A stretch of DNA of 64,000 nt from Chthoniobacterales bacterium (GCA_038207335.1 JBBQZX010000004.1:128001-192000); one strand, 5' to 3'; counted from the first letter of the stretch, positions 11,408 through 49,868 are shown. The notes: generated from the sequence alone by a model not told the origin. Numbers and translations: made by a program.

Positions 11408-12021
11408 CTCCACCACCCCGCAACCCTGTGCGCATCGGCATCGGCGGCCCGGTTGGCTCCGGCAAGACCATGCTCGTCCTGCGTCTTTGCCAATGGCTCG
11501 CCGGCGAGTTCTCCATCGCCGTCGTCACCAACGACATCTACACGCGAGAAGACGCCGAGTTCCTCGTGCGAAACGACGCGCTCGCCGCAGACCGCGTCAT
11601 CGGTGTCGAAACCGGCGGCTGCCCGCACACCGCCATCCGCGACGACACCAGCATGAATCTCGCCGCCATCGCCGAGCTCCAGCATCGCCATCCCGATGCG
11701 CAAATCGTCTTCGTCGAGAGCGGCGGCGACAATCTCTCCGCCACCTTTTCACCCGAACTCGTCGAGGCATTCATCTACGTCATCGACGTCGCCGAGGGGG
11801 ACAAAATCCCGCGCAAAGGCGGCCCCGCGATCCGGCACAGCGACCTCCTGCTCATCAATAAAACCGACCTCGCCCCATACGTTGGCGCCGACCTCGACGT
11901 CATGGCGCGCGACGCGAAAATCATGCGCGGCAACAAGCCCTTTCTCTTCGCCGACCTCCGCTCCGAAAAAGGCAAAGACGATCTCCTCGCCTGGCTCCGT
12001 CGCGAGGTGCTTTTTGTGTAA
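11404..12021 (+). CDS. ureG: urease accessory GTPase UreG
   Basis: [36 protein letters not shown] overlap with the upstream gene. Confidence 0.95.
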
Positions 12022-12023
12022 AA

Positions 12024-12902
12024 GTGGACGTCCTCGCGCCATCCGCACCGCCCGCGAGGAGCCGCGGAATCCGCGGCCATCTCGACCTCGTATGCGCCGC
12101 GAATGCCGATGGAAACAGCTTCTTGCGGCGACAGTCCTTTTCCGCGCCCATCCATCTCAGCAAGCCGCACCTCGACGAAAACGTCCTCATCGTCAACGTC
12201 GTCAACCCGACCGCGGGTCTCCTCTCCGGCGACCGCGTGAACATCAAAGTGCGCGTGGAATCCGGCGCAAAAATGCTCCTCACCGCCCCCAGCGCGAGCC
12301 GCGCCCATCGCATGTCCGAGGGCCGCGCCGAGGTGGTCCAGGAGTTAATCGTCGAGCCCGGCGCGTCCCTCGAAATCCTCCCCGAACTCTTCATCCCGCA
12401 AGCCGGCACGCGATACCTCCAGCGCACCTCCGCGCGAGTCGCGGAAGGCGGCGAACTCCTCCTCTTCGAAACCATTGCGCCCGGTCGCGTCGCATCCGGG
12501 GAGTCGTTCGCCTACGACGCACTCGAATGGTTCACCGACGTTTCTGCCAGCGGTGAGGCATGTGTCCGCGAGCGCATCCACCTCTCCCCGGCCGACGAAA
12601 GCCTCACCCCGCTCCGCACACTTTTCGCCAACGCCTACGTCGCAAACTGCTTCATCATCACTCCACGCCTCACCCCCGACTCCCCCTGCTGGCCGCCGAT
12701 CCGATCCCTTCACTCCTCCTCCGTCTGGGTCGGCACCACCCGCCTCCACAGCACCGGCTGGTGCATCAAATTGATCGCCGAAAGCAGCATCGCCCTCCGC
12801 GCCACCCTCCAAATAATCCGCGCGCAAATCTACGCCTCCCTCGCTCGTCCAGTCCCCTCGCTCCGCCGAAACGACCACATTTCTCCGCCTCCCGAAAGCT
12901 GA
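12024..12902 (+). CDS. ureD: urease accessory protein UreD/UreH
   Basis: NPTAGLLSGD, TAPSASRAH, PELFIPQAG, PGRVASGESF; follows ureG. Confidence 0.85.
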   Translation: MDVLAPSAPPARSRGIRGHLDLVCAANADGNSFLRRQSFSAPIHLSKPHLDENVLIVNVVNPTAGLLSGDRVNIKVRVESGAKMLLTAPSASRAHRMSEGRAEVVQELIVEPGASLEILPELFIPQAGTRYLQRTSARVAEGGELLLFETIAPGRVASGESFAYDALEWFTDVSASGEACVRERIHLSPADESLTPLRTLFANAYVANCFIITPRLTPDSPCWPPIRSLHSSSVWVGTTRLHSTGWCIKLIAESSIALRATLQIIRAQIYASLARPVPSLRRNDHISPPPES

Positions 12903-12936: not shown

Positions 12937-14040
12937 ATGCTCAAAGCCCTCGACATCTGGCTCCCAGCCTGGCGCAACCGCCCTCGCAACCCTCCCCGTC
13001 CGCTCGGAGTCCGACACGTCATGCTCTGCGTCTGCGACCACTTCGAGCCCTTCCACCACGCAAAAAAGCCCGTGGCCCTCGCACGCGTGAAAACCTGGCA
13101 GGACGAATTCCCGCAACTCGCCGACGAGTTTTCCGACGCCGATGACATCTCCCCGCGCCACACATTTTTCTATCCTATCGAGCAATATGACCCCGACATC
13201 GTCGCCGAGATCGCCAGCCTCTGCCACGCGACCGGCTGCGAGACCGAGGTTCATCTTCACCACGAAAACGACACCTCCGAAAATCTGCGAGCAACGCTGA
13301 ATCAAGGTGCAGAGCGGCTCGCCAGCCACGGCCTCCTCTCGCTCGACGCTTCCGGCACGCTGCGATACGGCTTCATTCACGGTAACTGGGCGCTCGATAA
13401 CTCCCACCCCGAAGGCCGCCACTGCGGCGTCCGCAACGAACTAAGCACCCTCCGCTCCACCGGCTGCTACGCCGACTTCACCCTCCCCTCCGCGCCAAAC
13501 CGTACACAGACCCGCACCATCAACAGCGTCTATTATGCACGCGGCACCGACTACCCGAAATCGCACGACACCGGCCACCGCGCCTTCGCCGACCGGGACC
13601 AGCAGCCGCCAGTCGAAAACGATCTCCTTATAGTCCAGGGCCCGCTCGCGCTGAACTGGAAGCGCCGCAAACTCGGCATCCTCCCGCGTATAGAAAACAG
13701 CGACCTCACCGCAAAAAATCCGCCGACTCTGGACCGCCTTCGCCTCTGGCTCGACTGCCGCATCACCGTCGAAAATCGTCCCAACTGGCTCTTCATCAAA
13801 CTCCATACGCACGGCGCGCTCCCGGCCAATACGCGAATGCTCCTCGGCGACCCAATGCGCGCATTCCACCGCTCCATCGCCGAACTCGCCGCCCGCGACC
13901 AGACCCTTCGCTTCCATTACGTCACCGCCCGCGAGCTCGTGAATATCATCCACGCAGCCGAGGCCGGACACTCCGGCGAACCCGGCCAATTCCGCGATTT
14001 CCGCTTCGCAAAATCCGCGGCAAGCGCGGCCCCGGCATGA
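12937..14040 (+). CDS. conserved His-rich protein of EPS loci, putative carbohydrate esterase/deacetylase fold
   Basis: CVCDHFEP, EVHLHH, FIHGNWALDN, GCYADFTLPSAP, FIKLHTHG; coupled by ATGA to a GT4 gene. Confidence 0.55.
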   Translation: MLKALDIWLPAWRNRPRNPPRPLGVRHVMLCVCDHFEPFHHAKKPVALARVKTWQDEFPQLADEFSDADDISPRHTFFYPIEQYDPDIVAEIASLCHATGCETEVHLHHENDTSENLRATLNQGAERLASHGLLSLDASGTLRYGFIHGNWALDNSHPEGRHCGVRNELSTLRSTGCYADFTLPSAPNRTQTRTINSVYYARGTDYPKSHDTGHRAFADRDQQPPVENDLLIVQGPLALNWKRRKLGILPRIENSDLTAKNPPTLDRLRLWLDCRITVENRPNWLFIKLHTHGALPANTRMLLGDPMRAFHRSIAELAARDQTLRFHYVTARELVNIIHAAEAGHSGEPGQFRDFRFAKSAASAAPA

Positions 14041-15185
14041 AGCTGCTTTTCATCTCGAATCTTTTCCCCGACACCCGCGAGCCCTACCGCGGCCTCGACA
14101 ACGCCACCGTCCTCCACGGCCTGCGCGAAAAATGGGACATCCGAGTCCTCGCGGTGCGCCCAGCGTTGCCGTTTCAAGTCCGCTCGTGGAAATGCCGCGA
14201 CGAAGACCATGCATTCGAACCGCGCTTCATCCACGCCCCCTACCTGCCGAAAATCGGAAGCCGCGTGAACCACCGCCTCATGGCCCGGGCCCTCCGCTCT
14301 CCCATCGAAATGCTGCGCAAAAGGTTCCGATTCGAAGTCGCCCTCTGCGCGTGGATTTACCCCGACGCGTGCGCCGTCTCGCTCCTCTCGAGCACCCTCG
14401 GTTTCCCCTTCGTCGCCATCGCGCAAGGCTCCGATGTCCACCAATACCTTCGCATCCCCGCGCGCCGCGAAATCATCTCGAAAACAATCCCCGCCGCCTC
14501 CGCCGTCATCACCCGCAGCGCAGAACTCGCGCGTCTCCTCGGCGAAGTCGGCATTGAAAAACAGCGCCTCCACGCAATCCACAACGGCGTCGATTTCAAC
14601 ACCTTCCACCCTGCCGACCGCGCCACCGCCCGTCGCGAACTCGGCCTCGATCCCGACACCCACGCAATCCTTTTCGTCGGCAACTTCTGCGCGATCAAAA
14701 ACCCGCTGCTCCTGCTCGAAGCCCACGCGCGCCTCTGCAACACGCCACATCTTGAAAACACCGAACTCGTGATGATCGGAGGCGGCCCACTCGAAACCGA
14801 AATCCGCGCCCGCGCCGCCGCGCTCGCCTCGCGCGTGATTTTCGCAGGACGAAAAGACGCCGCCGACGTCGGACGCCACATGCAAGCCGCCGACGTCCTC
14901 TGCCTCCCCAGCGACAACGAAGGCGTACCAAACGTCATCCTCGAATCATTCGCCTGCGGCCTCCCCGTCGTCGCGAGCAACGTCGGAGGCATCTCCGAAG
15001 TCCACACCAGCCCTGCGCTCGGCGCACTCGTCCCACCGCGCGACACCGCCGCACTCACCGCCGCATTGATCCAAACACTCACCGCCCCACCCCCACGCGA
15101 CGCCATCGCAGCCCACGGCCAAGAATTCTCCTGGCAACGCACCGCCGCGAAATACGACGCCGTCCTCACCTCCGCCGCGCGATGA
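14037..15185 (+). CDS. glycosyltransferase family 4
   Basis: HNGVD, ILFVGN, LPSDNEGVPNVILESFACGLPVVASNVGGISE. Confidence 0.9.
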   Translation: MKLLFISNLFPDTREPYRGLDNATVLHGLREKWDIRVLAVRPALPFQVRSWKCRDEDHAFEPRFIHAPYLPKIGSRVNHRLMARALRSPIEMLRKRFRFEVALCAWIYPDACAVSLLSSTLGFPFVAIAQGSDVHQYLRIPARREIISKTIPAASAVITRSAELARLLGEVGIEKQRLHAIHNGVDFNTFHPADRATARRELGLDPDTHAILFVGNFCAIKNPLLLLEAHARLCNTPHLENTELVMIGGGPLETEIRARAAALASRVIFAGRKDAADVGRHMQAADVLCLPSDNEGVPNVILESFACGLPVVASNVGGISEVHTSPALGALVPPRDTAALTAALIQTLTAPPPRDAIAAHGQEFSWQRTAAKYDAVLTSAAR

Positions 15186-16366
15186 AAATCCTCTTCCACT
15201 TCCGCACCCAGGGCACCGGCGCGGAAGGCGTTCACCTCGCCGGCATCGCCGACGCGCTGGAATCGCTCGGCCACAAACTCGTCTTCTCAAGCCCCACCGG
15301 AGTCGATCCACGCCACACCGCGGGTACAAACCCGTTCGCCCGCAAATCAAGGCGCAGCCTACTCTCCCAGCTCGCCGCGATAGCGCCCCCCGTCATTTTC
15401 GAGCTCCTTGAAATCGCCTACAACCTCGTCGCCTTCCTCCGGAACCGCGCCCTTCTCGCACACGAACGCTGCGATCTCATCTACGAGCGCCACGCCTTCT
15501 TCCTCTGCTCGACCGCGTGGCTTGCCCACGGCAGCCGCATCCCACTCGTCATCGAAGTCAATGAACTCTCCGGCGACGAACGCGTCCGCTCCGAGCCCTT
15601 TTTCTCCGCATTCGCCCGCTGGACCGAGCGCGCCACATTCACCCGCGCGACCCTCATCGTCGTCGTCTCCCCGCACCTCGCCCGCCGCATTTCAGCAATG
15701 GGCATCGACGCAAGAAAGATCCTGGTCCTCCCAAACGCCGTCAGCGAAGCGAGCCTAGCAAAACCCGCAAATCGCGACCGCATCCGAACCAAACTCCGCC
15801 TCGCCGATACTGTGGTGATCGGCTTCTCCGGCTGGTTCGTCGCCTGGCACCGCCTTGATCGCCTCCTCGCCGAGTTCGCTCCGCTCGCGCGCGAAAACCC
15901 TTGCCTCCGCCTCCTCCTCGTGGGCGACGGCGACCTCAAAACCGCGCTACTCGCGCAATCGCACGACCTCGGCATCGCAGAAATCGTCATTTTCACCGGC
16001 GCAATCCCGCACGACGAAATGCCCGACTACCTCGCCGCATTGGACATCGCCGTCGTCCCGCACAGCAATGCCTACCGCTCCCCGATCAAGCTCTTCGAAG
16101 CAATGGCCCGCGCCCTCCCAGTTGTCGCTCCGCGAGTCGAACCGATCGAGACCATCATCCGCCACGGTAAAAACGGAATGCTCTTCGACCTATCCATCGC
16201 CTCAGATTTGAGAGCCCAACTCGCCCGTCTCGTCGCCGATCGCGATTTGCGTACGTGCCTCGGAAATCAAGCCCAGTCGGACATCCGCGAGCACCACATT
16301 TGGACGAAAAATGTGGAGGCGATGCTCCGGCATCTCGAAGAACAGAACCCGACGGACCACGTGTAA
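15182..16366 (+). CDS. glycosyltransferase family 4
   Basis: LPNAV, GFSGWFVAWH, SPIKLFEAMARALPVVAP, HGKNGMLF. Confidence 0.9.
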   Translation: MKILFHFRTQGTGAEGVHLAGIADALESLGHKLVFSSPTGVDPRHTAGTNPFARKSRRSLLSQLAAIAPPVIFELLEIAYNLVAFLRNRALLAHERCDLIYERHAFFLCSTAWLAHGSRIPLVIEVNELSGDERVRSEPFFSAFARWTERATFTRATLIVVVSPHLARRISAMGIDARKILVLPNAVSEASLAKPANRDRIRTKLRLADTVVIGFSGWFVAWHRLDRLLAEFAPLARENPCLRLLLVGDGDLKTALLAQSHDLGIAEIVIFTGAIPHDEMPDYLAALDIAVVPHSNAYRSPIKLFEAMARALPVVAPRVEPIETIIRHGKNGMLFDLSIASDLRAQLARLVADRDLRTCLGNQAQSDIREHHIWTKNVEAMLRHLEEQNPTDHV

Positions 16367-16382
16367 GAACGGGCTAGCCCCG

Positions 16383-16410
16383 TTGACACACCCCAACCGA
16401 GCGGTACCCT
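16383..16410 (+). promoter_or_regulatory. sigma70-like promoter upstream of the E1alpha gene
   Basis: TTGACA-16 bp-TACCCT. Confidence 0.45.
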
Positions 16411-16429
16411 CGCGCGTCCTCTTCCACCC

Positions 16430-17359
16430 TTGGCCACCTCGCCCGACACCCTGCCGCCGCTCCGCGCCGTGTCACTCGAAACACTCGAATCGTTGCTGCT
16501 GATTCGTCACTTCGAGGAACTGTTACTCGATCATTTCCAAGCGGGAAAACTGAGCGGTACCACCCACACCTGTCTGGGCCAGGAATGCATTCCAGTCACC
16601 GTGATGCCGCTCCTCCGCGACGACGATTTCATCTTCAGCAACCACCGCGGACACGGCCATTACCTCGCGCGTTTTGACGACCCCGCCGGCCTGCTCGCCG
16701 AGATCATGGGCCGCGACGGCGGCGTCTGCCGCGGCGTCGGCGGCAGCCAGCACATCAAGCGCGGACGCTACATCTCCACCGGCATCCAGGGCGAAAGTCT
16801 CCCCGTCGCGGTCGGCGCCGCACTCCAGTTGAAACGCGAAAAGCGCGGCGGCATCGCAGTCCCATTCATTGGCGACGGGACATGGGGGCAAGGAGCCGTG
16901 TATGAGGCGCTGAACATGGCCGCGCTGTGGCGCGTCCCGATGGTCGTCGTCGTGGAAAACAACCACATCGCGCAAACCACGCACTGCACGCAAAACATGG
17001 CGGGAACGATCGAAGATCGCGTCCGCGCATTCGGCGTCGATTACCTCCGCGGCACCGGCCACGACATCGCCTCGCTGCGCGAAAAGATCACGCCGATTTT
17101 CGACCGCGCCCGCTTCGAAAACGCTCCCGCCGTCATCGAATTCGAAACCGAACGCCTCGGCTCCCACAGTAAAGGCGACGACACGCGAACGCCCGAATCC
17201 GTCGCCACGCTCCGCGCAAAGAGCTGGCACGCACACTTCTCGGCAGCTTTCCCCAAGCAGTTCGCTGTTGCGGAAGCGCGCGTCGCCGAGCGCATCGCCG
17301 CAGTCGCCACGGATGTCGAAAACCGGTCTCTCGCTACCTGGAGCCCGCGCCATGAGTGA
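16430..17359 (+). CDS. ThDP-dependent dehydrogenase E1 alpha subunit
   Basis: GTTHTCLGQE, SNHRGHGH, GDGTWGQG...ENN ThDP motif, RLGSHSKGDD. Confidence 0.9.
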   Translation: MATSPDTLPPLRAVSLETLESLLLIRHFEELLLDHFQAGKLSGTTHTCLGQECIPVTVMPLLRDDDFIFSNHRGHGHYLARFDDPAGLLAEIMGRDGGVCRGVGGSQHIKRGRYISTGIQGESLPVAVGAALQLKREKRGGIAVPFIGDGTWGQGAVYEALNMAALWRVPMVVVVENNHIAQTTHCTQNMAGTIEDRVRAFGVDYLRGTGHDIASLREKITPIFDRARFENAPAVIEFETERLGSHSKGDDTRTPESVATLRAKSWHAHFSAAFPKQFAVAEARVAERIAAVATDVENRSLATWSPRHE

Positions 17360-18353
17360 GCGCGTGGTCGAGAATCTCAACCGCGCGCTGCACGACGTGA
17401 TGCGCGCCGACGACCGTGTCTTCTTCATCGGCGAGGACGTTCTCGATCCTTACGGCGGTGCTTTCAAGGTCGCGCACGGACTTTCCAGCGCGTTCCCCGA
17501 CCGCGTGCTCACCACCCCGATCAGCGAACTCGGAATCGCAGGCGTCGCCAACGGCCTCGCTCTGGCCGGACAGCGCCCGATCGTCGAGTTCATGTTCGGC
17601 GACTTCATCTTTCTGGCCTTCGACCAGATCGTAAATTTCGCCGCGAAATCCGTGTCGATGTACGGCGAGCCAACTGCCCATCCCCTGCTCGTGCGATGCC
17701 CTGTCGGCGGGCATCGCGGCTACGGCGCGACACACAGCCAGAGTGTGCAAAAGCATTTCATCGGCGTGCCAAATCTCGCGCTCTTTGAAATCTCACCGCT
17801 CCACGACAACCGCAAACTCCTCCCGAAGCTCACCGCCCGCGACGAGCCCGCGATCCTGTTCGAAAGCAAAACGCTCTACGCACAAACGCAATTCAACGAC
17901 GGCGATATCGACGAACTCTTCCGCTACGACTTCCTCGACGAAGCGCGGATGACCGCCCGCGCCTTTATCGAAGCCGATCCGCAGGCGCTCGTCGTCACGA
18001 CCGGCGGCATGTTCAACGCGTGCCTCGCCGCCGGACGGCAGCTCTTTTTCGAGCACGAGATCGAGACGCAAATCGTGGTGCCGTTCCAACTTTACCCGTT
18101 CTATCCCGCGCCGCTCGCAGCCCTACTTTCGACTTGCTCGACGATCTATGTCGTCGAGGAAAGCACCGCCGGCGGGACGTGGGGAGCCGAGGTCGCGGCC
18201 GTCATCGCGCGGGAGTTCCCGAGCCTGCGCACGCAGATCCGGCTCATCCATTCTGCGGACAGCATCATCCCATCGGCCCGCCATCTCGAATCCGCGACAC
18301 TCGTGCAACCGCAGGACATCGTCGCGCGCATCGCGGCAGATTCCCTCTCGTAA
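17352..18353 (+). CDS. ThDP-dependent dehydrogenase E1 beta (transketolase C-terminal-like) subunit
   Basis: GEDVLDPYGGAFK, TPISELGIAG, FDQIVN, GYGATHSQS; overlaps the E1alpha stop. Confidence 0.9.
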   Translation: MSERVVENLNRALHDVMRADDRVFFIGEDVLDPYGGAFKVAHGLSSAFPDRVLTTPISELGIAGVANGLALAGQRPIVEFMFGDFIFLAFDQIVNFAAKSVSMYGEPTAHPLLVRCPVGGHRGYGATHSQSVQKHFIGVPNLALFEISPLHDNRKLLPKLTARDEPAILFESKTLYAQTQFNDGDIDELFRYDFLDEARMTARAFIEADPQALVVTTGGMFNACLAAGRQLFFEHEIETQIVVPFQLYPFYPAPLAALLSTCSTIYVVEESTAGGTWGAEVAAVIAREFPSLRTQIRLIHSADSIIPSARHLESATLVQPQDIVARIAADSLS

Positions 18354-18356
18354 TCC

Positions 18357-19475
18357 ATGAGCCCGATACTCGTCCCGACCATCAACAGCAACGACTCCGA
18401 CGCGCTGCTCCTCGCATGGTCGAAAAACAACGGCGACGAAGTCTGCAAAGGCGAAACGATCGCCTTGCTCGAGACGACAAAAGCCTCCTTCGATCTCGCC
18501 GCGGAGGCGGACGGACTCCTGCACACCGTCGCACTCGAAGGCCTGCGCCATGCCTTCGGCACGAGCCTCGGCTGGCTCTTCACCGATGCCGCGGAGCGCG
18601 ACCAGTTCTTCCTCCGCCGCACCTCCAAAACGCCCGCGGAGAGCGCCGGATTCGTCATCACAAAATCCGCGCGCGACCTCATCGCGCGAAACGGCATCGA
18701 CGGCGACGCGATCCGTGCGCTCGGCAAAAGGGTCATCAAAGCCGAAGACCTCGCGCCGCTCCTGAGGCCTGTGCCCGAGCCAAAGATTAGTGCGGCATTG
18801 CTCCCGGTCAGCCCGCAGCAGCAGTCGATCGCACGTGTCGTCGCGCACTCGCACGCTGCAATCCCGGCATCGTTCATTTTGAAGAGAGTCGCGGTCGATG
18901 CTGCGCTCGACGCCGTCGCGCAATTCAGCCGCGAGGAAAAGATTCTCGCTGGATTGCCCGACCTGCTCGTCTGGATCGCAGCGCGTCTGCCGGAAACCTT
19001 TCCTTTCTTTTTCGGCGCTCTCAGAGACGAGTTGAAATTCACGCCGTCGAACTCCGGCAGCATCGGGGTGACGTTCGACGTCGGCCACGGCCTCTTCATT
19101 CCCGTGGTGAAAAAGGCGGCTTCCCTCTCACTCGGCGAGATCGCGAAAACGATGATGGGATTTCGGATGCGCGCGGCTCGAAACAGCTTCCACGCGGAGG
19201 AACTCAGCGGCGGCGATTTGACGATCAGCCTCAATATGGACGCGTGCGTGGTCTTCGTGCAGCCGATCATTCAACCGCCGCAGACGTGCATGATTTCCGT
19301 CGGCGCAGTGACGGCCGAAATCGCGCTCGATGCCGATGGGAAGATGATTTCCCGGCGATGCGTGCATCTCGGCGCGGCCTTCGATCACCGCGTCATCAAT
19401 GGCTTTCAGGCCAACGCATTCCTCAACGCAATCGCGCAGCGGCTGGAAAATCCCGAGCCTGCTGCGTGGCGATGA
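18357..19475 (+). CDS. dihydrolipoamide acyltransferase-like E2 (lipoyl, degenerate subunit-binding and catalytic domains)
   Basis: LETTKASFDL lipoyl-Lys; KSARDLIARNGID; catalytic AFDHRVING. Confidence 0.85.
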   Translation: MSPILVPTINSNDSDALLLAWSKNNGDEVCKGETIALLETTKASFDLAAEADGLLHTVALEGLRHAFGTSLGWLFTDAAERDQFFLRRTSKTPAESAGFVITKSARDLIARNGIDGDAIRALGKRVIKAEDLAPLLRPVPEPKISAALLPVSPQQQSIARVVAHSHAAIPASFILKRVAVDAALDAVAQFSREEKILAGLPDLLVWIAARLPETFPFFFGALRDELKFTPSNSGSIGVTFDVGHGLFIPVVKKAASLSLGEIAKTMMGFRMRAARNSFHAEELSGGDLTISLNMDACVVFVQPIIQPPQTCMISVGAVTAEIALDADGKMISRRCVHLGAAFDHRVINGFQANAFLNAIAQRLENPEPAAWR

Positions 19476-19522
19476 GCGGTGCTTGCGCGGGTCGCACGGC
19501 TATCGAAGAATCCCGCGCCTCC

Positions 19523-19756
19523 ATGCCACTCCGCCTCCTGCAAATCATCGCCCGGGTGTTTAAAACACCGCCCGAAACCGTCACCGCCGAGAGCGGACCG
19601 CACACGATCGCGGCGTGGGATTCCGCGGGACATCTGAATCTGATCCTCGAACTCGAGCGTGAATTTAGCGTGCGATTCGACGACGACGAAGTCGTGGAAT
19701 TGGTCAGCGTCCAGGCCATCGCGACCGCCTTGGAAAAACACGGCGCGCAGCTCTGA
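19523..19756 (+). CDS. stand-alone acyl carrier protein
   Basis: 77 aa, acidic; WDSAGHLNLILELEREFSVRF phosphopantetheine Ser motif. Confidence 0.9.
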   Translation: MPLRLLQIIARVFKTPPETVTAESGPHTIAAWDSAGHLNLILELEREFSVRFDDDEVVELVSVQAIATALEKHGAQL

Positions 19757-19760
19757 ATCG

Positions 19761-20693
19761 ATGGCGCCGCGCATCGAGTGGCCAGACGGAAAGCGGTTTG
19801 CGTTCTCCATTTTCGACGACGCGGACTACGACCGATTGACCAACACGCGCCCGATCTACGACTTCCTCGCCAGCCTCGGAATCCTCACGACAAAGTCCGT
19901 TTGGACGCTCGCGGCGCAGCACGACGCAAGGCTCGGCGGCATGAGTACGGAGTCGGCAGACTATCTCGAATGGGCGCAGTCGCTCCAGCGCGCTGGCTTT
20001 GAAATCGGCTTCCACGGCGCGCGCTGCCACAGCTCCGAGCGTAAGGAAACGCGGCTCGGGCTCGACCGCTTTCGCGAGCAGTTCGGCGGTGACCCGCGGA
20101 GCATGTCGAATCATTTTCAAAACGCCGATTCCATCTATTGGGGTGCCGCTCGCCTTACTGGCGCGGCGCGGCTCATTTATCGCACCGCAAATTTCCACAG
20201 CCGATTGCGATGCGAAGGGCATGTCGAAGGCAGCACATTTTTCTGGGGCGACCTGTGCCGCGAGCGGATCAGATACGTGCGAAATTTTGTCTTCCGAGAT
20301 ATCGACACGCTCGCGACGTGTCCGTGGATGCCATACCGCGACGCCGCCTTCCCGTTTGTGAACGCGTGGTTTGCCTCGGCCGAGGGCGGCGACATCAATT
20401 CGTTCAACGCGATGCTGCGCGAAGAAAACCAAGACCGCCTCGCGGCGCAGGGCGGCGCGTGCATCATGTACACGCACTTCGCGAAAGGCTTTTCCACCGA
20501 TGGAAATCTGAATCCACGTTTCGTCGAACTGATGCAGCGGCTCTCGAAACTCGGCGGCTGGTGCGTGCCAGTCGGCACGCTGCTCGATTTTCTCGCGGTT
20601 AAAAATGGCGGCATTCACGACCTCACGAGCGCCGAGCGGAGTCGTCTGCAATGGCGCTGGCTCGCGACCAAGCTGCTCCACGGCTCCTCCTGA
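19761..20693 (+). CDS. polysaccharide deacetylase-like protein
   Basis: WPDGKRFAFSIFDDAD, GFEIGFHG, IMYTHF (NodB/CE4-like motifs). Confidence 0.7.
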   Translation: MAPRIEWPDGKRFAFSIFDDADYDRLTNTRPIYDFLASLGILTTKSVWTLAAQHDARLGGMSTESADYLEWAQSLQRAGFEIGFHGARCHSSERKETRLGLDRFREQFGGDPRSMSNHFQNADSIYWGAARLTGAARLIYRTANFHSRLRCEGHVEGSTFFWGDLCRERIRYVRNFVFRDIDTLATCPWMPYRDAAFPFVNAWFASAEGGDINSFNAMLREENQDRLAAQGGACIMYTHFAKGFSTDGNLNPRFVELMQRLSKLGGWCVPVGTLLDFLAVKNGGIHDLTSAERSRLQWRWLATKLLHGSS

Positions 20694-20708
20694 ATCGCCG
20701 CACCGTCG

Positions 20709-21956
20709 ATGCCACTCGAAATTGTCCCGTATCAGCCGCAGCACGAGGCTGCCGTCGCGGAGTTCAACGCCCGAGCCCGCGCCCACGACGCGCCGTTCAC
20801 CCTCAGCAAAACACCGCAATCGGAATGGCTGCCGAACATCCCGGGCCGCGCAGTCCGCCGGGAGTTTTTCCTCGCGCTCGACGGATGCGCAGTGCGTGGC
20901 GGCTTCACGCTGCGACGACAGGAGTTCCTATTACGCGGCAAAATCGCCGAGATCGCGAATTATCAGGGGCCGCTGTCGGAAGGCATTTGGGACCGCCGCT
21001 TCATGATGGTTGGCGTGCAGATGCTGCGTGCGGCGCTCCGCGATCAGCCGCTGCTCTACGCCCTCGGCATGGGCGGTCCCGCACAACCGCTGCCGCGGCT
21101 TTTAAGCATGTCGGGCTGGTCGATGACCCTCGTGCCATTCCATTTCAAAGTTCTGCGGGCTGCGGCATTTCTGCGCAATATCCAGCCGCTCCGCACGACT
21201 CCGTGGCGGGCGCGGCTGCTGGATTTCGCCTCGGCAATGGGCGCGGGCGAGGCGATTCGCGCGTGGCAATGGCATCGCAGCGCCACCCCGTGCGCGCGCC
21301 AACTTAACTTCAGCGCGCCGACCGGAGCGGCCAAAATAAATCGCACACGGCCATGGTTTCGCAGCGCCGATTCGCAGCGTTTGAAGGACTGCACCTGCAC
21401 AGCCGTTTCGGAGTTCGGTGCGTGGGCTGAGGAGGTGTGGAAAAATGCGCGCCTCGCTTCCATCGCCGCGCCGGAGCCTGACCCGTTGTCCCTGACGGCG
21501 TGGGAGCCATGTCATTTTGGTGCAGTTCGCGATCGAACAGCGCAGAACGTTTTGTTCGGTGATGGCAATCCAGCGAATATCATCCTGCGCTGCCTGGACG
21601 CTGGGGCGGATATCGGGTGGGCGGTGGTGCGCTCGACGCAGATGCGCGGCGATCAATATTTCGGCAACATGCGGCTCGGCTCGATCGTCGATTGCCTCGC
21701 GGTGCCGGATCAGGAATATGCAGTGATCGCGCTGGCGACGGAGCATCTGCGCGGTCTCGCCAGCGACCTCATCGTTAGCAATCAAATGCACTCCGAATGG
21801 CGGCAAGGTCTCCGGTTCAATGGCTTTCTCGATGCTCGCTCGAATTTCCTTTTCGCCACCTCCCCGGCGCTCACCGCGGCCTTGGGCGGTGAGGATTACC
21901 CGCCCGCGAGCATCCACATCAACCGCGCGGATGGCGATGGGCCGATCCATCTCTGA
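20709..21956 (+). CDS. tandem GNAT/FemAB-like putative acyltransferase
   Basis: [20 protein letters not shown] start; [28 protein letters not shown]. The two-GNAT architecture is inferred, not searched. Confidence 0.5.
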
Positions 21957-21973
21957 ATTTCCCGAGCACCCGC

Positions 21974-22001
21974 TTGAACGCCAAAAGGCGTTTGCTAGTC
22001 T
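21974..22001 (+). promoter_or_regulatory. sigma70-like promoter with an internal palindrome
   Basis: TTGAAC-16 bp-TAGTCT with TGn extension; AACGCC-AAAA-GGCGTT at 21977-21992. Confidence 0.45.
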
Positions 22002-22008
22002 CCGCCGC

Positions 22009-23040
22009 GTGTCATTTCTCCGCCTGCTGCTTTTTGGCCTGATTTTCGCGAAAGCAGCCGTCGCCTTCGCCCAGCAGGCACCGCCTTTGAGCGATGAGGA
22101 AAAGCGCCGCACTTTCCTCAGAGCCCGCGAGGAAATGCACACAATCCCGCTGACTCCGCGTCCCGACGCGATGCCGGCTCCGAAGCCGAAACCAAAGCCT
22201 GCCCGGCCAAAGCCCGAACCGGAGCCCAAGCCCCCGACTCCCAAGCCAAAACCCGAGCCGGAGCCCGAACCGGAACCGAAGCCAAAGCCCGCGAAGCCTG
22301 AGCCAGAGCCTGTTCCGAAGCCAAAGCCGACTCCGCGGGCGACACCGGAACCCACGCCGCGGCCCAAGCCCGAGCCGCCCGCGAAGCCGCTCGAGACACC
22401 GCAAAAGCCGAAGCCCGCGCCCGTGACTCCGGCACCGCGCACCGCCCCGGCTGCTCCGATCACCATCGAGAAATCCGGCCTCGAAGAATCCACGGGACTG
22501 GAGCCCGCGGAAAAGTCGGGTTGGTTCAGTCGCTGGGATTATCTCTCGAAATCGGTTCGGCGCGCGATCGACAAAGCGCCCGTGCAGTCGCGGCGCTGGC
22601 GTTACATCGTCGTCCACAACAGCGGCACGCGGCAGGGAAATGCGAAGGCATTCGAGTATTACCACCTGCATGTGCGCAAGATGCCGAACGGCCTCGCTTA
22701 TCATTTCGTCATCGGCAACGGCACCTCCTCCGGCGACGGCGAAATCGAGATCGGCAATCGCTGGGCACGCCAGATCAATGGCGGCCACGTCCACAGCGAC
22801 TATCTCAACAACATCGCGCTCGGCATCTGCCTCGTCGGCGATTTCAACCGCGACAAACCGACCAAGCGCCAGCTCGAAGCGCTCGACGAACTCATCCGAT
22901 ACCTCCGCGGACGCGTCGGCAAAATCGACCGCAAATACGCGATCGTAAAAGCCCATCGCGAAATCAATCCGCCGCGCTGGCCGACCGACTGCCCCGGCAG
23001 CAAATTCCCCTACTCCTGGCTCCACAAAAAATTCGACTGA
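22009..23040 (+). CDS. N-acetylmuramoyl-L-alanine amidase (Amidase_2/PGRP) with Pro/Lys/Glu-rich linker
   Basis: Signal peptide from GTG 22009; (PK/PE)n linker; [34 protein letters not shown]. Confidence 0.85.
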
Positions 23041-44526: not shown

Positions 44527-45243
44527 ATGTTTTCTGTCGTCACAGCTTCATCCAGTCTCTCGGCTTTTCCCGGCGATCGTGCGGGGAAGGTCGCACAGTT
44601 GCGGGCGATCCTCGCGGAAAAATTTCCGATGGTGCAGCCGAGGGCGAATGGGGTGCTGGCCACTGGGGTGCCGGAGATCGATGAGGTGGAAGGTGGGTTG
44701 CGGCGGGCTGCGCTCACGGAGTTTTCGGCGAGTTCGGGGGCGGGGGCGCTTTTTATTCGTGCGCTGTTGCGGACGATTTGTCGGGAGCGTTGTCTCGCGG
44801 CTTTGGTCGATGCAGGGCGCTCTTTCGATGCGGAGGGAGCTGGGGCGGCGGGGCTGGCGAGGCTGCTCGTCGTCTTTTCCGCGGATGGGATGCAGGCGGT
44901 GAAGGCCACGGATTTGCTGCTCCGCGATGGCAATCTTTCGCTCGTGCTGCTCGACATGCAGGCCATGCCGCCGCGCGAGTTGCAGCGCATCCCGGCGAAC
45001 ACTTGGCACCGGCTCCAGCGGCTCGCGGAGCAAACGTCGGCGGCGCTCGTGGCGCTCACGTCGCAGCCGATGATCGAGGCCGCGCAGGTGCGCATCGGCA
45101 CAGGGAAAAGCTGGACGCTCGACACGCAGCGCCGCTGGCAGCGCGATGTTGTCGCGTCCACAGCCTGGCGGGTCTTTCCGCGACGAGTGGGGGGGCGGCG
45201 GATGCCGGTTTGGGAAGATGGGCACGCGTCCGCCATCGCATGA
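44527..45243 (+). CDS. imuA: ImuA/RecA-like mutagenesis protein
   Basis: LATGVPEIDEVEGGLRRAALTE, ALVDAGRSFD, ATDLLLRDGNLSLVLLD, WHRLQRLAE; precedes imuB; start uncertain. Confidence 0.8.
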   Translation: MFSVVTASSSLSAFPGDRAGKVAQLRAILAEKFPMVQPRANGVLATGVPEIDEVEGGLRRAALTEFSASSGAGALFIRALLRTICRERCLAALVDAGRSFDAEGAGAAGLARLLVVFSADGMQAVKATDLLLRDGNLSLVLLDMQAMPPRELQRIPANTWHRLQRLAEQTSAALVALTSQPMIEAAQVRIGTGKSWTLDTQRRWQRDVVASTAWRVFPRRVGGRRMPVWEDGHASAIA

Positions 45244-45252
45244 GGAGGAGCC

Positions 45253-46779
45253 ATGTTCGCGGTCATTCTTTTGCCAAATTTCCGGCTGCAGGCGGCGCTT
45301 CGTTTTCGCGAGGAAATGGATGCGCTGCCGGTCGCGCTCGTGGATGAGCAGGCTCCGAAAATGGGCGTGCTCGAAGCCAGCTCCGCGGCGGCGGACGCTG
45401 GCGTGACGGCGGGGCAGACGACGCCACAGGCGCTCGCGCGATGCGAGTCGCTCGTCATCCTCACGCGTTCCCGCGCGCAGGAGCGGAGCGCGCAATCCGC
45501 GCTGCTCGAAATGGCCGCGGCGCTCTCGCCGGAAGTCGAGGCGACGGCGGATGGATTTTGCACGATCGGCCTGCAAAGCTCGCGGACAAAGGATTGGCAG
45601 GCGATGGGCACTTGCGCCATCGCCGGGCTCGCAGCGCTGAGACTCCGCGCGCAGATCGGCTTTGGCCCAAATCCCGACCTCGCATTTCTCGCCGCGCGCC
45701 GCGCCCGTCCCGTGCTCGTGGTGCAGTCGCCCACGACTTTTCTCGCCGACCTCGCGGTGCAGGAACTCGACCCCGCGCCCGAGTTGCTCGCGCTGCTACG
45801 CGACTGGGGGATCCACAATCTCGCGCAACTCACGAGCCTTCCGCGCGGCGACCTGATGGACCGGCTCGGCCCCGAAGCCGGGCGCCTGTGGGAGCGCGCG
45901 GCGGGGCGCGCGGAGCGTCCGCTGCGGCTCGTGAGAGAGGTCGAGGAATTCATCGAGGAATTCGATTTCGAGCGCGAAATCGACACGATCGAGCCGCTGC
46001 TTTTTCTGCTGCGCCGCTTCCTCGACCAGCTCGCGCTGCGGCTCAGGCAGGCGTATCGCGTGGCCGGGCAGATGGCGTTCGCGCTCCCGCTGGCGGATGG
46101 CAGCGCGCACGAGCGCATCTTCACCGTGCCGTCGCCGACCGCGGATGTGGACGTGCTTTTTCGCATCCTGCACACGCATCTCGAGGGCCTGCAGCTCCAT
46201 CACGGCGCGACCGGGATGCGGCTGCACATCGTGCCGACGCGCGCGGAGCGGCAGCAGTTCCAGCTCTTCGAGACGCCGCTGCGCGACCCGAATCGTTTTG
46301 GCGAAACGCTCGGCCGGCTCGCGGCTCTGGTCGGGAGTGAAAATGTCGGCGTCGTGCATGCGCTCGACACGCATCGGCCCGATTGCATCGAGCTGCGGCC
46401 GCCGCGTTTTCACGAACTCGATCCCGCAGCCGCGCCCGGCGAAGACCTCGCGATCGGACTGCCGCTGCGGCGCTTTCGTCCGCCGATCGCGGCGACGGTG
46501 CGCGTGATGGCGCATCATCCGGTGTGGCTCGATTCGGAGCGCGTCCGCGGCGAAATCTGCGCCTCGCTCGGGCCGTATCGCGCATCGGGCGGATGGTGGG
46601 AGAGCGATCGCTGGAGCACGGAGGAGTGGGACGTGGAGATGGAAAGCAGCGGGCTCTACCGACTCGCGCGCGTGCGGGACGAGTGGCGCGTGGAAGGCAG
46701 CTACGATGAGCCTTCGCGAGGAAATCGCCGCGGCGCCGGGGCGGTCGTGGCGATGCAAAATGGGGAACTCGCGCGATGA
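45253..46779 (+). CDS. imuB: inactive Y-family polymerase ImuB
   Basis: AGVTAGQT..QALARC, LSPEVE, WGIHNLAQL, GPYRASGGWW...EEWDVE. Confidence 0.85.
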   Translation: MFAVILLPNFRLQAALRFREEMDALPVALVDEQAPKMGVLEASSAAADAGVTAGQTTPQALARCESLVILTRSRAQERSAQSALLEMAAALSPEVEATADGFCTIGLQSSRTKDWQAMGTCAIAGLAALRLRAQIGFGPNPDLAFLAARRARPVLVVQSPTTFLADLAVQELDPAPELLALLRDWGIHNLAQLTSLPRGDLMDRLGPEAGRLWERAAGRAERPLRLVREVEEFIEEFDFEREIDTIEPLLFLLRRFLDQLALRLRQAYRVAGQMAFALPLADGSAHERIFTVPSPTADVDVLFRILHTHLEGLQLHHGATGMRLHIVPTRAERQQFQLFETPLRDPNRFGETLGRLAALVGSENVGVVHALDTHRPDCIELRPPRFHELDPAAAPGEDLAIGLPLRRFRPPIAATVRVMAHHPVWLDSERVRGEICASLGPYRASGGWWESDRWSTEEWDVEMESSGLYRLARVRDEWRVEGSYDEPSRGNRRGAGAVVAMQNGELAR

Positions 46780-49700: not shown

Positions 49701-49868
49701 TCCGCGCTGCTTTTTGAGAAAATGCGGCTACGAATCTCCGAAGAGCCTTACCTCGAAATTCGCGGCGACCTTCAAAAAGTCGAAGGCGTGATCCACGTCA
49801 AAGCCCGCGGGATTTTGCCCCTCTTCATGGAGGAAATTGCAGCCGTACCCTCACACGATTTTCACTAG
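46776..49868 (+). CDS. dnaE2: error-prone DNA polymerase DnaE2
   Basis: YVELHARSACSFLRGAS, GRGSAANS, PDIDLD, PRHLGQHSGG, YGFPESHA, C-terminal SHDFH. Confidence 0.95.
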   Translation: MNYVELHARSACSFLRGASHPEHLAERASELELPAVAVCDRDGLYGAARFFSAAKEHGIRAIVGAELTLECDSVLPVLVQSRTGYRNLCQLITQAKLRGTKTDAPVRIGELAEFAEGLVALTGDEEGPVRRALARNDAAAALSCVEQLTASFGSGNVFIEIQRHLRRGEARENDALRDLAAAAKLPLLATNGVLHATPAERAVLDVFTCARQHTHLDAAGRFLALNDERHLKPAARMTRLFADTPDAIANTLRLADRLDFSLQNLGYEFPKYRVPEGESMDSFLRKMTLDGARGRYGKPDAKVLAQIDHELDLIARLGFSGYFLIVWDLVNFAKSENILVQGRGSAANSVVCYSIGITACDPIACKLLFERFLSEGRTSWPDIDLDLPSGDRRERVIQEVYRRYGQHGAAMTANVISFRGKSAMREIGKALNFPPDVLTRFSHLFGSGDFPHTLDIEAQVAQSGIADTHPRAAAAVALYARIYGLPRHLGQHSGGMIICEGKLSGIVPLENASMPGRVVAQWDKDDCEDLGIIKVDLLGLGMMAAMQDSLEMCAARGHPVALATIPKDDTATFDLLCRADTIGTFQVESRAQIATLPRLQPREFYDVVVEVALIRPGPIQGNMVHPYLKRRRGEERVEFMDERLRPVLERTLGIPLFQEQLLKIAMVMAGFTGSEAEELRRALSFHRSQERMEKVCVKLRAGLARNAVPAGTAERIVQSVQSFAVYGFPESHAISFALIAYASCWMKVHRAPEFYAGLFNNQPMGFYSAATLAKDAKRRGVRIRPVNVLESDWLCTVGADDSLRLGLCYVRGLSHADGERILAERKAVPFASLVDFQLRTLLPKTASRALAKVGALNGLSAHRRTAQWQVEVSRADDDLFATAESSLTPPLRPMNATERLNADYTGTTLTTGPHPMAIIRARVPHLWRAIDLESAANGAHLAIGGMVICRQRPGTAHGVVFISLEDETGIANAIVSALLFEKMRLRISEEPYLEIRGDLQKVEGVIHVKARGILPLFMEEIAAVPSHDFH

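What the first reader, a model, noticed from the sequence alone, without database searches (positions are those of the whole stretch)
12937..21956. Candidate undescribed glycan-acylation pathway: dedicated E1alpha/E1beta/E2 plus ACP plus GNAT inside a glycosyltransferase/deacetylase cluster
Seen: co-directional, tightly spaced His-rich esterase-like gene, two GT4s, E1alpha, E1beta, a lipoyl-bearing E2 (ETTKA; DHRVING), a free-standing WDS-type ACP, a CE4-like deacetylase and a GNAT/FemAB-like protein. There is no E3 and no NRPS/PKS in the window. Known: in naphthyridinomycin/quinocarcin biosynthesis, PDH-like ThDP enzymes with a lipoyl/acyltransferase module take a C2 unit from ketose phosphates and load glycolyl onto an ACP for an NRPS. 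Inference: the same chemistry is rerouted here to envelope glycans. E1/E2 would load an acyl group (glycolyl, acetyl or another 2-oxoacid-derived acyl) on the ACP rather than CoA, deacetylases would free sugar amines, and the GNAT would install the new acyl group (an acyl swap on EPS/LPS). The substrate is unknown.
Basis: partly seen in the sequence, partly recalled or inferred. Interest (0 to 1): 0.82.

Follow-up and report, generated by a model that had tools for sequence, protein, structure and literature searches.

The report
Swappable acyl generator for surface sugars
Inside a surface-polysaccharide gene cluster sits a pyruvate-dehydrogenase-like trio whose closest relatives come from natural-product clusters; it likely loads a two-carbon (probably glycolyl) group on a small carrier protein, which a neighbouring acyltransferase would put on an amino sugar, and a related genome carries a different carrier-loading enzyme in the very same slot.

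Summary
Observation confirmed. Nine co-directional genes: HisX, two GT4s, E1alpha, E1beta, lipoyl-E2, ACP, a CE4-fold protein (CE4x) and a tandem-GNAT-fold protein (GNATx; both folds from confident models). E1alpha groups (100/100) with NapB/Qnc-type enzymes of alkaloid clusters, apart from PDH, AcoA and BCKDH; E1beta and E2 share derived motifs with them. The key new evidence is a slot swap. In genome G385 the same locus (HisX-GT4-GT4-[loader]-ACP-CE4x-GNATx-sugar transferase) holds MaoC/SDR plus FkbH where E1/E1/E2 sit here, and two genomes of that genus have no cassette. In 80 GNATx loci the loader is FkbH (34), AMP ligase (21), KASIII (5) or E1/E2 (3); FkbH and E2 never co-occur; 63 carry a deacetylase. 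Best reading: E1/E2 likely make glycolyl-ACP from ketose phosphate, CE4x would free a sugar amine, and GNATx would N-acylate it for a Wzy-type polysaccharide. Acyl group, acceptor and the swap are untested. No canonical PDH was found in this assembly, though two cassette-bearing relatives have one. The scan noted the same idea on other DNA (e1-3306341). I found no paper on it in nine searches. New variant of a known kind; interest 0.72.

The parts
12937..14040 (+). HisX, 367 aa, conserved His/Asp-motif protein of no known family (CDHFEP, HLHH, FIHGNW, KLHTHG); possibly a CE4-clan metallohydrolase; part of the host polysaccharide locus, not of the cassette
   Evidence: No Pfam/NCBIfam hit; nearest named ESM clusters are polysaccharide deacetylases at 0.80-0.82, a lead only; 41 of 121 family genomes; motifs
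14037..15185 (+). GT4 glycosyltransferase a, 382 aa
   Evidence: PF00534 E 7.5e-31; nearest NCBIfam stp2 (TIGR03088), below cut-off
15182..16366 (+). GT4 glycosyltransferase b, 394 aa
   Evidence: PF00534 E 2e-23; nearest NCBIfam stp3 (TIGR04063), below cut-off
16430..17359 (+). E1 alpha, 309 aa (start uncertain), ThDP motif GDG148...NN178; NapB/QncN-type clade
   Evidence: PF00676; TIGR03182 194.5 bits, cut-off 393.85; motifs; trees
17352..18353 (+). E1 beta, 333 aa, with clade motifs GGAFK and RGYGATHSQ
   Evidence: PF02779+PF02780; motif shared with NapD-like and RenH, absent from 5 PDH/Aco/BCKDH-type beta subunits; census
18357..19475 (+). E2, 372 aa: lipoyl domain (K42), linker, acyltransferase core (DHR, H344) with SLNMD in place of the usual SNxG
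   Evidence: PF00364+PF00198; alignment; 0 of 93 clade E2 cores have Asn at the usual position
19523..19756 (+). Free-standing ACP, 77 aa (alternative ATG at 19472), WDS34 phosphopantetheine site; swapped together with its loader
   Evidence: PF00550 E 1.9e-05; alignment; 38% identical to the ACP of G385 while the flanking genes are 54-73%
19761..20693 (+). CE4x, 310 aa, CE4/NodB-fold metallo-amidohydrolase, predicted de-N-acylase
   Evidence: Model pLDDT 96.5; VIA Z 16.8 to 1z7a, 16.3 to 3qbu, 14.4 to ArnD 8t0j; D19, D20, H85, H118, H239 invariant in 96 sequences
20709..21956 (+). GNATx, 415 aa (about 370 in relatives; two loop inserts), tandem GNAT acyltransferase with a conserved C-terminus
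   Evidence: Model pLDDT 91.0; VIA Z 18.7 to NMT 8fbt, 15.9 to 4zm6, 15.1 to Eis 3sxn; inserts; 70 of 100 sequences end GDGPIHL

Best explanation
The nine genes are a glycosyltransferase locus carrying a six-gene cassette in which E1alpha/E1beta/E2 likely load a glycolyl group on the ACP, the CE4-fold protein would free a sugar amine, and the tandem GNAT would move the group from the ACP onto that amine in a surface polysaccharide precursor. Steps: (1) E1 cleaves a C2 unit from a ketose phosphate on ThDP and oxidises it onto lipoyl-K42 (inferred from the NapB/D and QncN/L relatives). (2) The E2 core passes it to the ACP phosphopantetheine rather than CoA (inferred from the shared changed motif, the adjacent ACP and the slot swap). 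(3) An E3 encoded elsewhere would reoxidise the lipoyl arm. (4) CE4x de-N-acetylates a nucleotide- or lipid-linked amino sugar in the cytoplasm (fold shown, substrate inferred). (5) GNATx N-acylates it (fold shown, chemistry inferred). (6) The GT4s and the Wzy/Wza/Wzc genes on contig C1 build and export the polymer (inferred from the joined locus in G361 and G385). My odds: acyl-ACP generator for GNATx 0.8; acceptor is a surface glycan 0.75; acyl is glycolyl 0.6; CE4x/GNATx act as a swap on one amine 0.55.
For: Slot swap: G385 has HisX-GT4-GT4-[MaoC/SDR, FkbH]-ACP-CE4x-GNATx-sugar transferase; L057 has the same order with E1a-E1b-E2 in the slot; G407 and G390 have HisX-GT4-GT4-sugar transferase and no cassette. 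G385's GNATx nests among E1/E2-type GNATx (support 99). In 80 GNATx loci: FkbH 34, AMP ligase 21, LuxE 9, KASIII 5, E2 3, any loader 56; FkbH and E2 never together; CE4x 32, canonical CE4 35, both only 4, either 63; a glycan gene in 64. E1alpha lies in a 100/100 clade with actinobacterial NRPS-linked E1s, apart from PDH/AcoA/BCKDH; L017/L024 match the dnacin/nap gene set (against PMC7570522). E1beta RGYG[AP]THSQ in 98 of 98 near and 69 of 71 deeper relatives. GNATx aligns to the C-terminal end of Eis (model 1-410 to chain 1-402) and has a fixed C-terminus; in NMT and Eis the terminal carboxylate is the base for an amine (recalled). The deeper sister clade puts the same E1 next to a lipoyl-PglD/NeuD sugar N-acyltransferase fusion in 60 of 80 loci, 45 of the 60 with a sugar transferase or DegT aminotransferase. 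LipA, two PPTases and an E3-like gene are in the genome.
Against: No substrate or product is shown. Characterised QncN/NapB sequences were not in the tree; I used synteny proxies and RenH, and the branching next to the Verrucomicrobia clade is unresolved (84/81). GNATx works with several loaders, so the family does not fix the acyl group. No loader was seen in 24 of 80 GNATx loci and no deacetylase in 17 of 80 (many are short contigs). No canonical PDH E1alpha, AceE or PDH E2 was found in this 94.7% complete assembly. Here the cassette is detached from the export genes (C1) and holds no amino-sugar biosynthesis gene. CE4x lacks the usual HxxxH spacing (second His at +5, in 68 of 96). Both E3-like genes score under the cut-off (377 and 365 against 408.8).
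Confidence: 0.5

Rival explanations
1. Same route, other acyl group: E1 takes pyruvate or another 2-oxoacid, so the ACP carries acetyl or another short acyl group that GNATx puts on the sugar.
For: E1 substrate cannot be read from sequence; best Pfam/NCBIfam hits are PDH models; the lipoyl-PglD fusions of the sister clade pass the NeuD/PglB/VioB acetyltransferase cut-off.
Against: E1alpha nests with NapB-like enzymes and keeps their Arg/Lys motifs in E1beta; the slot partner FkbH gives a hydroxy-acyl group (FkbH loading: PMC4552970 passage); removing an acetyl to put an acetyl back would be futile.
Confidence: 0.2
2. The acyl-ACP is made as above, but GNATx acylates something other than a freshly deacetylated sugar amine (a sugar hydroxyl, a lipid, an amino-acid amide on a uronate, or a protein), and CE4x acts separately or edits wrongly acylated products.
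For: The best fold match is protein N-myristoyltransferase; 17 of 80 GNATx loci show no deacetylase; asparagine-synthase-like amidotransferases occur in 18 of 80; in L159 a related E1/E2/ACP set sits with MBOAT O-acyltransferases and no CE4x or GNATx.
Against: CE4x is directly upstream of GNATx in 25 loci and a canonical CE4 directly downstream in 20, and the two are nearly exclusive; glucosamine N-acetyltransferases are among the top folds.
Confidence: 0.2
3. The trio is a working pyruvate or acetoin dehydrogenase for central metabolism that happens to lie in a glycan locus.
For: No canonical PDH was found in this assembly; lipoyl Lys and catalytic His are intact.
Against: Scores far under the PDH cut-offs; apart from PDH/AcoA in the tree; present in only 6 of 121 family genomes; G332 and G336 hold both a canonical PDH E1alpha and the cassette; replaced by FkbH in G385.
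Confidence: 0.04
4. E1alpha/beta add a C2 branch directly to an NDP-4-keto sugar, as recalled for the AviB1/B2-type pairs, and E2/ACP are secondary.
For: E1 pairs acting on sugar nucleotides exist (recalled, not checked); the locus is a sugar locus.
Against: E2 and ACP are conserved in every copy; no NDP-sugar dehydratase in the cassette; the three genes are replaced as a block by an ACP loader.
Confidence: 0.04

Closest known systems
QncN/QncL/QncM, NapB/NapD/NapC, SclQ1-4, DinU/S/T, RenH/RenI (two-component 'transketolase' that makes glycolyl-S-ACP for NRPS)
   Same: E1alpha + E1beta + lipoyl/acyltransferase + free ACP; same E1alpha clade; 52-58% identity in E1alpha and 47% in E1beta to synteny-defined NapB/D-like proteins; shared E1beta and E2 motifs; three separate genes, as SclQ2/3/4 (PMC6335953 passages).
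   Different: No KASIII and no NRPS; the downstream genes are a CE4-fold hydrolase, a tandem GNAT and GT4s; E1beta and E2 are not fused as in QncL/NapD; 0 of 76 non-Verrucomicrobia near relatives have CE4x, GNATx or these GT4s.
FkbH glyceryl-ACP loaders (TIGR01686)
   Same: Occupies the same slot beside ACP, CE4x and GNATx in G385 and occurs in 34 of 80 GNATx loci.
   Different: HAD-family enzyme giving a C3 unit from bisphosphoglycerate (recalled); none found in this genome (whose control rang nowhere).
Dedicated-ACP N-acylation of O-antigen amino sugars: Flavobacterium psychrophilum wfpC-G; Vibrio cholerae O1 tetronate on perosamine
   Same: A polysaccharide-specific ACP supplies an unusual N-acyl group (predicted in PMC6519341, passage; tetronate acylation and wbeL in PMC3441752, passages; the ACP and LuxE-like genes of that locus are recalled).
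   Different: There the acyl group comes from FAS-II or AMP-ligase enzymes and the amine from an aminotransferase; here a ThDP/lipoyl machine and a deacetylase.
Pyruvate dehydrogenase complex (E1 alpha2beta2, E2, E3)
   Same: Same domains, lipoyl Lys, catalytic His.
   Different: Below family cut-offs, separate clade, changed E2 motif, no E3 in the operon, ACP next door.
NMT / Eis / GlmA-type tandem GNATs
   Same: Whole-length fold match (Z 14-19).
   Different: 5-13% identity; profile search of PDB sequences finds nothing; always near ACP systems, so likely ACP- rather than CoA-fed.

Membership tests
Qnc/Nap glycolyl-ACP generator | ThDP-binding E1alpha plus E1beta (pyrimidine and C-terminal domains) | tested here: met
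Qnc/Nap glycolyl-ACP generator | Lipoyl domain plus acyltransferase core with catalytic His | tested here: met
   separate gene, as SclQ4
Qnc/Nap glycolyl-ACP generator | Adjacent free-standing ACP | tested here: met
Qnc/Nap glycolyl-ACP generator | E1alpha groups with NapB/QncN-type enzymes, apart from PDH/AcoA/BCKDH | tested here: met
   (100/100); proxies by synteny (L017, L018, L024) and RenH; the characterised QncN and NapB sequences themselves were not available
Qnc/Nap glycolyl-ACP generator | Hand-over to an NRPS, through KASIII or a C domain | tested here: not met
   No KASIII or NRPS among the neighbours; so it works like the generator but is not a member of an NRPS pathway
Qnc/Nap glycolyl-ACP generator | Uses ketose phosphate, yields glycolyl-S-ACP | not testable with these tools
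   needs an assay
Housekeeping PDH complex | E1alpha over the TIGR03182/TIGR03181 cut-off and in the PDH clade | tested here: not met
   194.5 against 393.85 bits; tree
Housekeeping PDH complex | E2 core with [ST]NxG motif | tested here: not met
   SLNMD; 0 of 93 clade members have Asn there
Housekeeping PDH complex | E1/E3-binding domain in E2 | tested here: inconclusive
   No PF02817 hit in the window E2; residues about 100-135 resemble one by eye; a relative, L346, has the hit
Carbohydrate esterase family 4 (19761-20693) | NodB barrel fold | tested here: met
   Z 16.8, rmsd 3.4, 225 aligned
Carbohydrate esterase family 4 (19761-20693) | Motif 1 Asp-Asp and motif 5 His | tested here: met
   D19, D20, H239 invariant in 96 sequences
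Carbohydrate esterase family 4 (19761-20693) | Motif 2 HxxxH metal ligands | tested here: inconclusive
   H85 invariant; second His at +5 in 68 of 96; H118 invariant and may serve instead
Carbohydrate esterase family 4 (19761-20693) | De-N-acetylates a sugar | not testable with these tools
   needs an assay
Tandem GNAT (20709-21956) | Two GNAT domains in one chain | tested here: met
   Z 18.7, rmsd 5.3, 322 aligned to 8fbt
FemABX aminoacyl-tRNA transferases (20709-21956) | Closest fold and profile are FemAB | tested here: inconclusive
   No PF02388 hit; FemX/FemA rank 22 and 24 (Z 11.5, 11.2), well under NMT/Eis
GT4 glycosyltransferases | PF00534/PF13692 over cut-off | tested here: met

The most novel reading that the evidence does not exclude
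Bacteria have a widespread, undescribed plug-in system that rewrites the N-acyl groups of surface sugars: a deacetylase and a tandem GNAT work with an ACP whose loader is exchangeable (FkbH, AMP ligase, KASIII, or this ThDP/lipoyl trio). This copy would make N-glycolyl sugars straight from pentose-phosphate ketoses, a route to N-glycolyl that needs no oxygenase, and the Qnc/Nap chemistry of antitumour alkaloids would be one offshoot of an E1 clade that mostly serves glycans.
Probability: 0.4. Interest if true: 0.85.

Novelty: new variant of a known kind. Interest (0 to 1): 0.72.

Why it matters
How bacteria put glycolyl, glyceroyl and similar N-acyl groups on surface sugars is called an open problem in the literature I read (PMC5378307, passages). 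The known N-glycolyl routes hydroxylate an N-acetyl group (recalled). This cassette names candidate enzymes for a different route and gives functions to two large unnamed families (GNATx: 273 confirmed stretches in one scan; CE4x: 2765 hits). The natural loader swap predicts which acyl group each strain should display, and a cultured organism (Chthoniobacter flavus Ellin428, L057) carries the E1/E2 version, so the claim can be tested directly. The enzymes could also serve for making hydroxy-acylated glycans.

Tried and rejected
Pfam, NCBIfam and PDB sequence searches gave nothing for HisX, CE4x and GNATx (only a chitin deacetylase at E 0.18). The ESM Atlas gave unnamed clusters first and CE4-like clusters only under 0.9. 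A class-wide sample found GNATx strongly only in this genome (4 of 301 at E<=0.001, three of them weak). HisX was not folded: both jobs went to GNATx and CE4x. Foldseek against the PDB and the complex prediction of GNATx with the ACP were not available, so binding is neither supported nor excluded. The primary paper on QncN/QncL (Peng and co-workers, 2012; recalled) is not held; its chemistry is taken from passages of PMC6335953, PMC7570522 and PMC13249901. The two inserts in GNATx are not a repeat found elsewhere in the genome and stand unchanged in contigs of run X1, which may be the source of this DNA and so is not independent. No RNA holder was listed. A first E2 motif census by fixed slicing was unreliable and was replaced by an alignment-based one. 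The careful 65-row tree did not finish (one search is the quick tree); one search is a finished tree on 37 of the 65 rows. Rejected: housekeeping PDH; FemAB-type tRNA transferase as first choice; HisX as part of the cassette; a direction of transfer between Actinomycetota and Verrucomicrobiota (trees are midpoint-rooted, no clade test was run). Nine literature searches listed no paper on an E1/E2/ACP set in a glycan locus; the library lacks most subscription journals and I read no supplements.

Full report
Observation. Between 12937 and 21956 lie nine + strand genes that overlap or stand 3-63 bases apart. Family scans name six of them: two GT4s, E1alpha, E1beta, an E2 with lipoyl domain and acyltransferase core, and an ACP. 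Three proteins have no family hit. GNATx (20709-21956) folds with mean pLDDT 91.0 and matches tandem GNATs over its whole length: N-myristoyltransferase 8fbt Z 18.7 (rmsd 5.3, 322 aligned), a glucosamine N-acetyltransferase region 4zm6 Z 15.9, Eis 3sxn Z 15.1; FemX and FemA come lower at 11.5 and 11.2. CE4x (19761-20693) folds with pLDDT 96.5 and matches CE4/NodB barrels: 1z7a Z 16.8, HP0310 16.3, the deformylase ArnD 14.4. HisX (12937-14040) was not folded; only a weak CE4-like lead exists. A hydropathy scan shows no clear signal peptide in the six cassette proteins (highest 19-residue mean 1.44), so I take them as cytoplasmic. GC content is that of the surroundings.

What the E1/E2 trio is. 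E1alpha scores 194.5 bits on the PDH model (cut-off 393.85). In a finished tree of 37 of the 65 collected rows it sits in a Verrucomicrobiota clade of 7 (96/90), inside a clade of 22 (100/100) with actinobacterial E1s and a PKS-linked Paenibacillus E1, inside a clade of 26 (100/100) that also holds RenH; the 11 PDH, AcoA and BCKDH rows lie outside (the quick 65-row tree agrees). The branching just around the Verrucomicrobiota clade is unresolved and the root is the midpoint, so no donor is claimed. Of the 80 best E1alpha relatives from a scan that covered 20 of 64 parts of the collection, 4 are Verrucomicrobiota; of the other 76, 64 have a protein of the NRPS/AMP-binding cluster within 10 kb, 45 an ACP, 16 a KASIII, and none CE4x, GNATx or these GT4s. 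L017 and L024 carry HpaB-type hydroxylase, two ABC transporters, FAD monooxygenase, a 244-aa methyltransferase, E1alpha, ACP, an E1beta-E2 fusion, KASIII and an NRPS piece (on L017; L024 has the same gene lengths), the gene set of the dnacin/naphthyridinomycin clusters (PMC7570522, passages and table text). I used them as stand-ins for NapB/C/D/E. That such sets turn a ketose phosphate into glycolyl on an ACP is stated in PMC6335953 and PMC13249901 (passages); the primary paper was not held. The window shares two derived features with this group. E1beta has RGYG[AP]THSQ (98 of 98 near and 69 of 71 deeper relatives; absent from 5 outgroup beta subunits); its Arg could bind a substrate phosphate, which is inference. 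The E2 core has SLNMD where PDH-type E2s have [ST]NxG, and none of 93 clade E2 cores has Asn at the usual place, which fits a changed thiol acceptor.

Housekeeping PDH. This assembly (94.7% complete) has one more E1alpha/E1beta/E2 set on C12, under all PDH cut-offs and on a long branch, plus SucA/SucB and one 2-oxoacid:ferredoxin oxidoreductase; no canonical PDH E1alpha, AceE or further E2 was found. This counts against a tidy story. But most family genomes have a canonical E1alpha, and G332 and G336 have it together with the cassette. LipA, two PPTases and an E3-like gene on C41 (best hit lipoamide dehydrogenase, under cut-off) are present.

Synteny and the slot swap. The order E1a-E1b-E2-ACP-CE4x-GNATx recurs in L001, L002, L003, L016, L057 and L158, behind the GT4 pair in four of them. 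In 121 genomes of the family HisX occurs in 41, GNATx in 7 and the E2 orthologue in 6; these overlap with the named loci and are not additive. The seventh GNATx genome is the telling one. G385 has HisX-GT4-GT4-[MaoC/SDR fusion, FkbH]-ACP-CE4x-GNATx-sugar transferase (FkbH 282.6 bits, cut-off 146.65). L057 has the same order with E1a-E1b-E2 in the bracket. G361, of the same genus as G385, has HisX, the E2 orthologue and GNATx in that order on one contig, with Wza, Wzc, Wzy-like, GT2 and GT4 genes upstream. G407 and G390, same genus again, have HisX-GT4-GT4-sugar transferase with no cassette. G385's GNATx nests among the E1/E2-type GNATx proteins (support 99). Its CE4x and GNATx are 73% and 54% identical to the window's, its ACP only 38%: loader and ACP were exchanged as a unit. 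FkbH domains load unusual units on ACPs (PMC4552970, passage); that FkbH gives glyceryl, and with dehydratase and ketoreductase lactyl, is recalled and was not read in a call. So the slot holds an ACP loader, probably of a small 2-hydroxy-acyl group, which suits glycolyl. In this genome the export and polymerase orthologues (41-64% identical to those of G361/G385) lie on C1:83046-93153, apart from the cassette.

The wider GNATx family. A scan confirmed 273 stretches and kept the best 80, from Acidobacteriota, Planctomycetota, Gammaproteobacteria and others; 79 yielded gene calls. With clusters labelled by a Pfam scan of one representative each: FkbH 34, AMP ligase 21, LuxE 9, KASIII 5, E2 3, any loader 56 of 80; FkbH and E2 never together; a glycan gene in 64. 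An ACP was found in 47 by tblastn and in 60 when three clusters labelled by eye are added. CE4x occurs in 32, a canonical polysaccharide deacetylase in 35, both in 4, either in 63; CE4x is the gene directly upstream of GNATx in 25 loci and the canonical one directly downstream in 20. Two unrelated-looking deacetylases filling one place next to the acyltransferase is the best argument for a deacetylate-then-reacylate step. Misses: no loader in 24 and no deacetylase in 17 of 80, often on short contigs; relatives are not independent, so no statistic is given. GNATx ends in a fixed C-terminus (70 of 100 GDGPIHL) that aligns with the end of Eis; the role of that terminal carboxylate as base for an amine acceptor in NMT and Eis is recalled.

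The same E1 clade serves glycans in other ways. In the 80 best loci of the deeper branch (30 of 64 parts scanned), 60 have a lipoyl domain fused to a PglD/NeuD-type sugar N-acyltransferase in place of E2, 45 of the 60 with a sugar transferase or DegT aminotransferase nearby; 5 have a true E2 core, and L329 and L346 show ACP-E2-E1-E1 among glycosyltransferases. L159 has E1/E1/E2, a methyltransferase, an ACP and MBOATs in a Wzx/Wzy/Wzc locus. I saw the lipoyl-PglD fusion first; earlier notes of the scan describe it too.

Mechanism and odds. Shown: gene content, folds, clade, motifs, the slot swap, co-occurrence. Inferred: ketose phosphate as donor, glycolyl as product, ACP as acceptor of E2, an amino sugar as acceptor of GNATx, the order of steps, E3 in trans. 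I put the acyl-ACP generator role at 0.8, a surface glycan as target at 0.75, glycolyl at 0.6, a swap on one amine at 0.55, and the whole chain at 0.5. Rivals: another acyl group (0.2), another acceptor or a separate role of CE4x (0.2), metabolic PDH (0.04), direct C2 branching of a sugar (0.04).

Comparison and novelty. It works like the Qnc/Nap generator and meets four of its sequence features, but fails the hand-over to an NRPS, so it is not filed in that pathway family. Dedicated ACPs for N-acyl groups of O-antigen sugars are predicted in PMC6519341 (one passage), and tetronate on perosamine is the classic case (PMC3441752, passages). The genetic basis of N-glyceroyl and a possible N-glycolyl group on Tannerella sugars is called unresolved in PMC5378307 (passages). 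Nine searches (listings and abstract starts seen) showed no paper on an E1/E2/ACP set in a glycan locus; the library lacks most subscription journals, and supplements, which I did not read, may list such genes. The scan recorded the same idea on other DNA (e1-3306341, read after I had stated my reading); that is not independent evidence. Verdict: real, a new variant of a known kind, interest 0.72.

Noticed in passing
L021-L023, L275-L354 (e.g. L320:13279-14406): Sister E1 clade with a lipoyl-PglD/NeuD fusion in place of E2, in 60 of 80 loci, mostly beside sugar transferase or DegT genes; suggests acyl transfer from lipoamide straight to an amino sugar.
   Followed up: partly
L394:9374-12342 (G385): MaoC-dehydratase/SDR fusion plus FkbH in the slot of E1/E1/E2; may give lactoyl- or glyceroyl-ACP.
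   Followed up: yes
L159:9872-17213: E1/E1/E2, methyltransferase, ACP and MBOATs inside a Wzx/Wzy/Wzc locus of a Verrucomicrobiales genome: a possible O-acylation or methoxyacetyl route.
   Followed up: partly
L004:1-3176: Gemmatimonadetes locus with fused E1alpha/beta, E2, ACP and a single-domain RimJ-type GNAT instead of CE4x/GNATx.
   Followed up: no
L102:7242-8989: A split transketolase-like pair (277 and 306 aa) between DegT and CE4x-GNATx in a Planctomycetota locus.
   Followed up: no
L006-L015, L019: Recurring Micromonospora-type cluster: NRPS fused to an MFS transporter, a lantibiotic-dehydratase N-terminal protein, ACP, E1alpha and an E1beta-E2 fusion.
   Followed up: no
L030-L032 (e.g. 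L031:395-3214): In Lysobacteraceae HisX is fused to a beta-helix domain (917-940 aa), in a locus with FkbH, CE4x and GNATx.
   Followed up: no
window 21280-21520: GNATx here has about 45 extra residues in low-confidence loops, absent from its closest relatives; in frame and not a genomic repeat.
   Followed up: partly
window 11428-12902: ureG and ureD directly upstream of HisX with no urease structural genes beside them; L016 has ureF-ureG-ureD at the same place.
   Followed up: no
window 21931-23040: Amidase_2 protein with a long Pro/Lys/Glu repeat, directly after GNATx, also in L001 and L016.
   Followed up: no
window 44527-49868: Three + strand genes (238, 508, 1030 aa) that look like an imuA-imuB-dnaE2 mutagenesis cassette; label by eye and recall, not scanned.
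   Followed up: no
window 51579-53334: Two - strand genes resembling proteasome alpha and beta subunits and a 58-aa ORF resembling a Pup/UBact tag; label by eye and recall, not scanned.
   Followed up: no
G000:C1:77308-93153: Wza/Wzc/Wzy/GT locus orthologous to the one joined to the cassette in G361 and G385, next to an MBOAT and a 615-aa carbamoyltransferase-like gene (by eye).
   Followed up: partly
G000:C12:22880-26100: Second E1alpha/E1beta/E2 set, under all PDH cut-offs and on a long branch; similar-scoring E1alpha genes occur in most family genomes; substrate unclear.
   Followed up: partly
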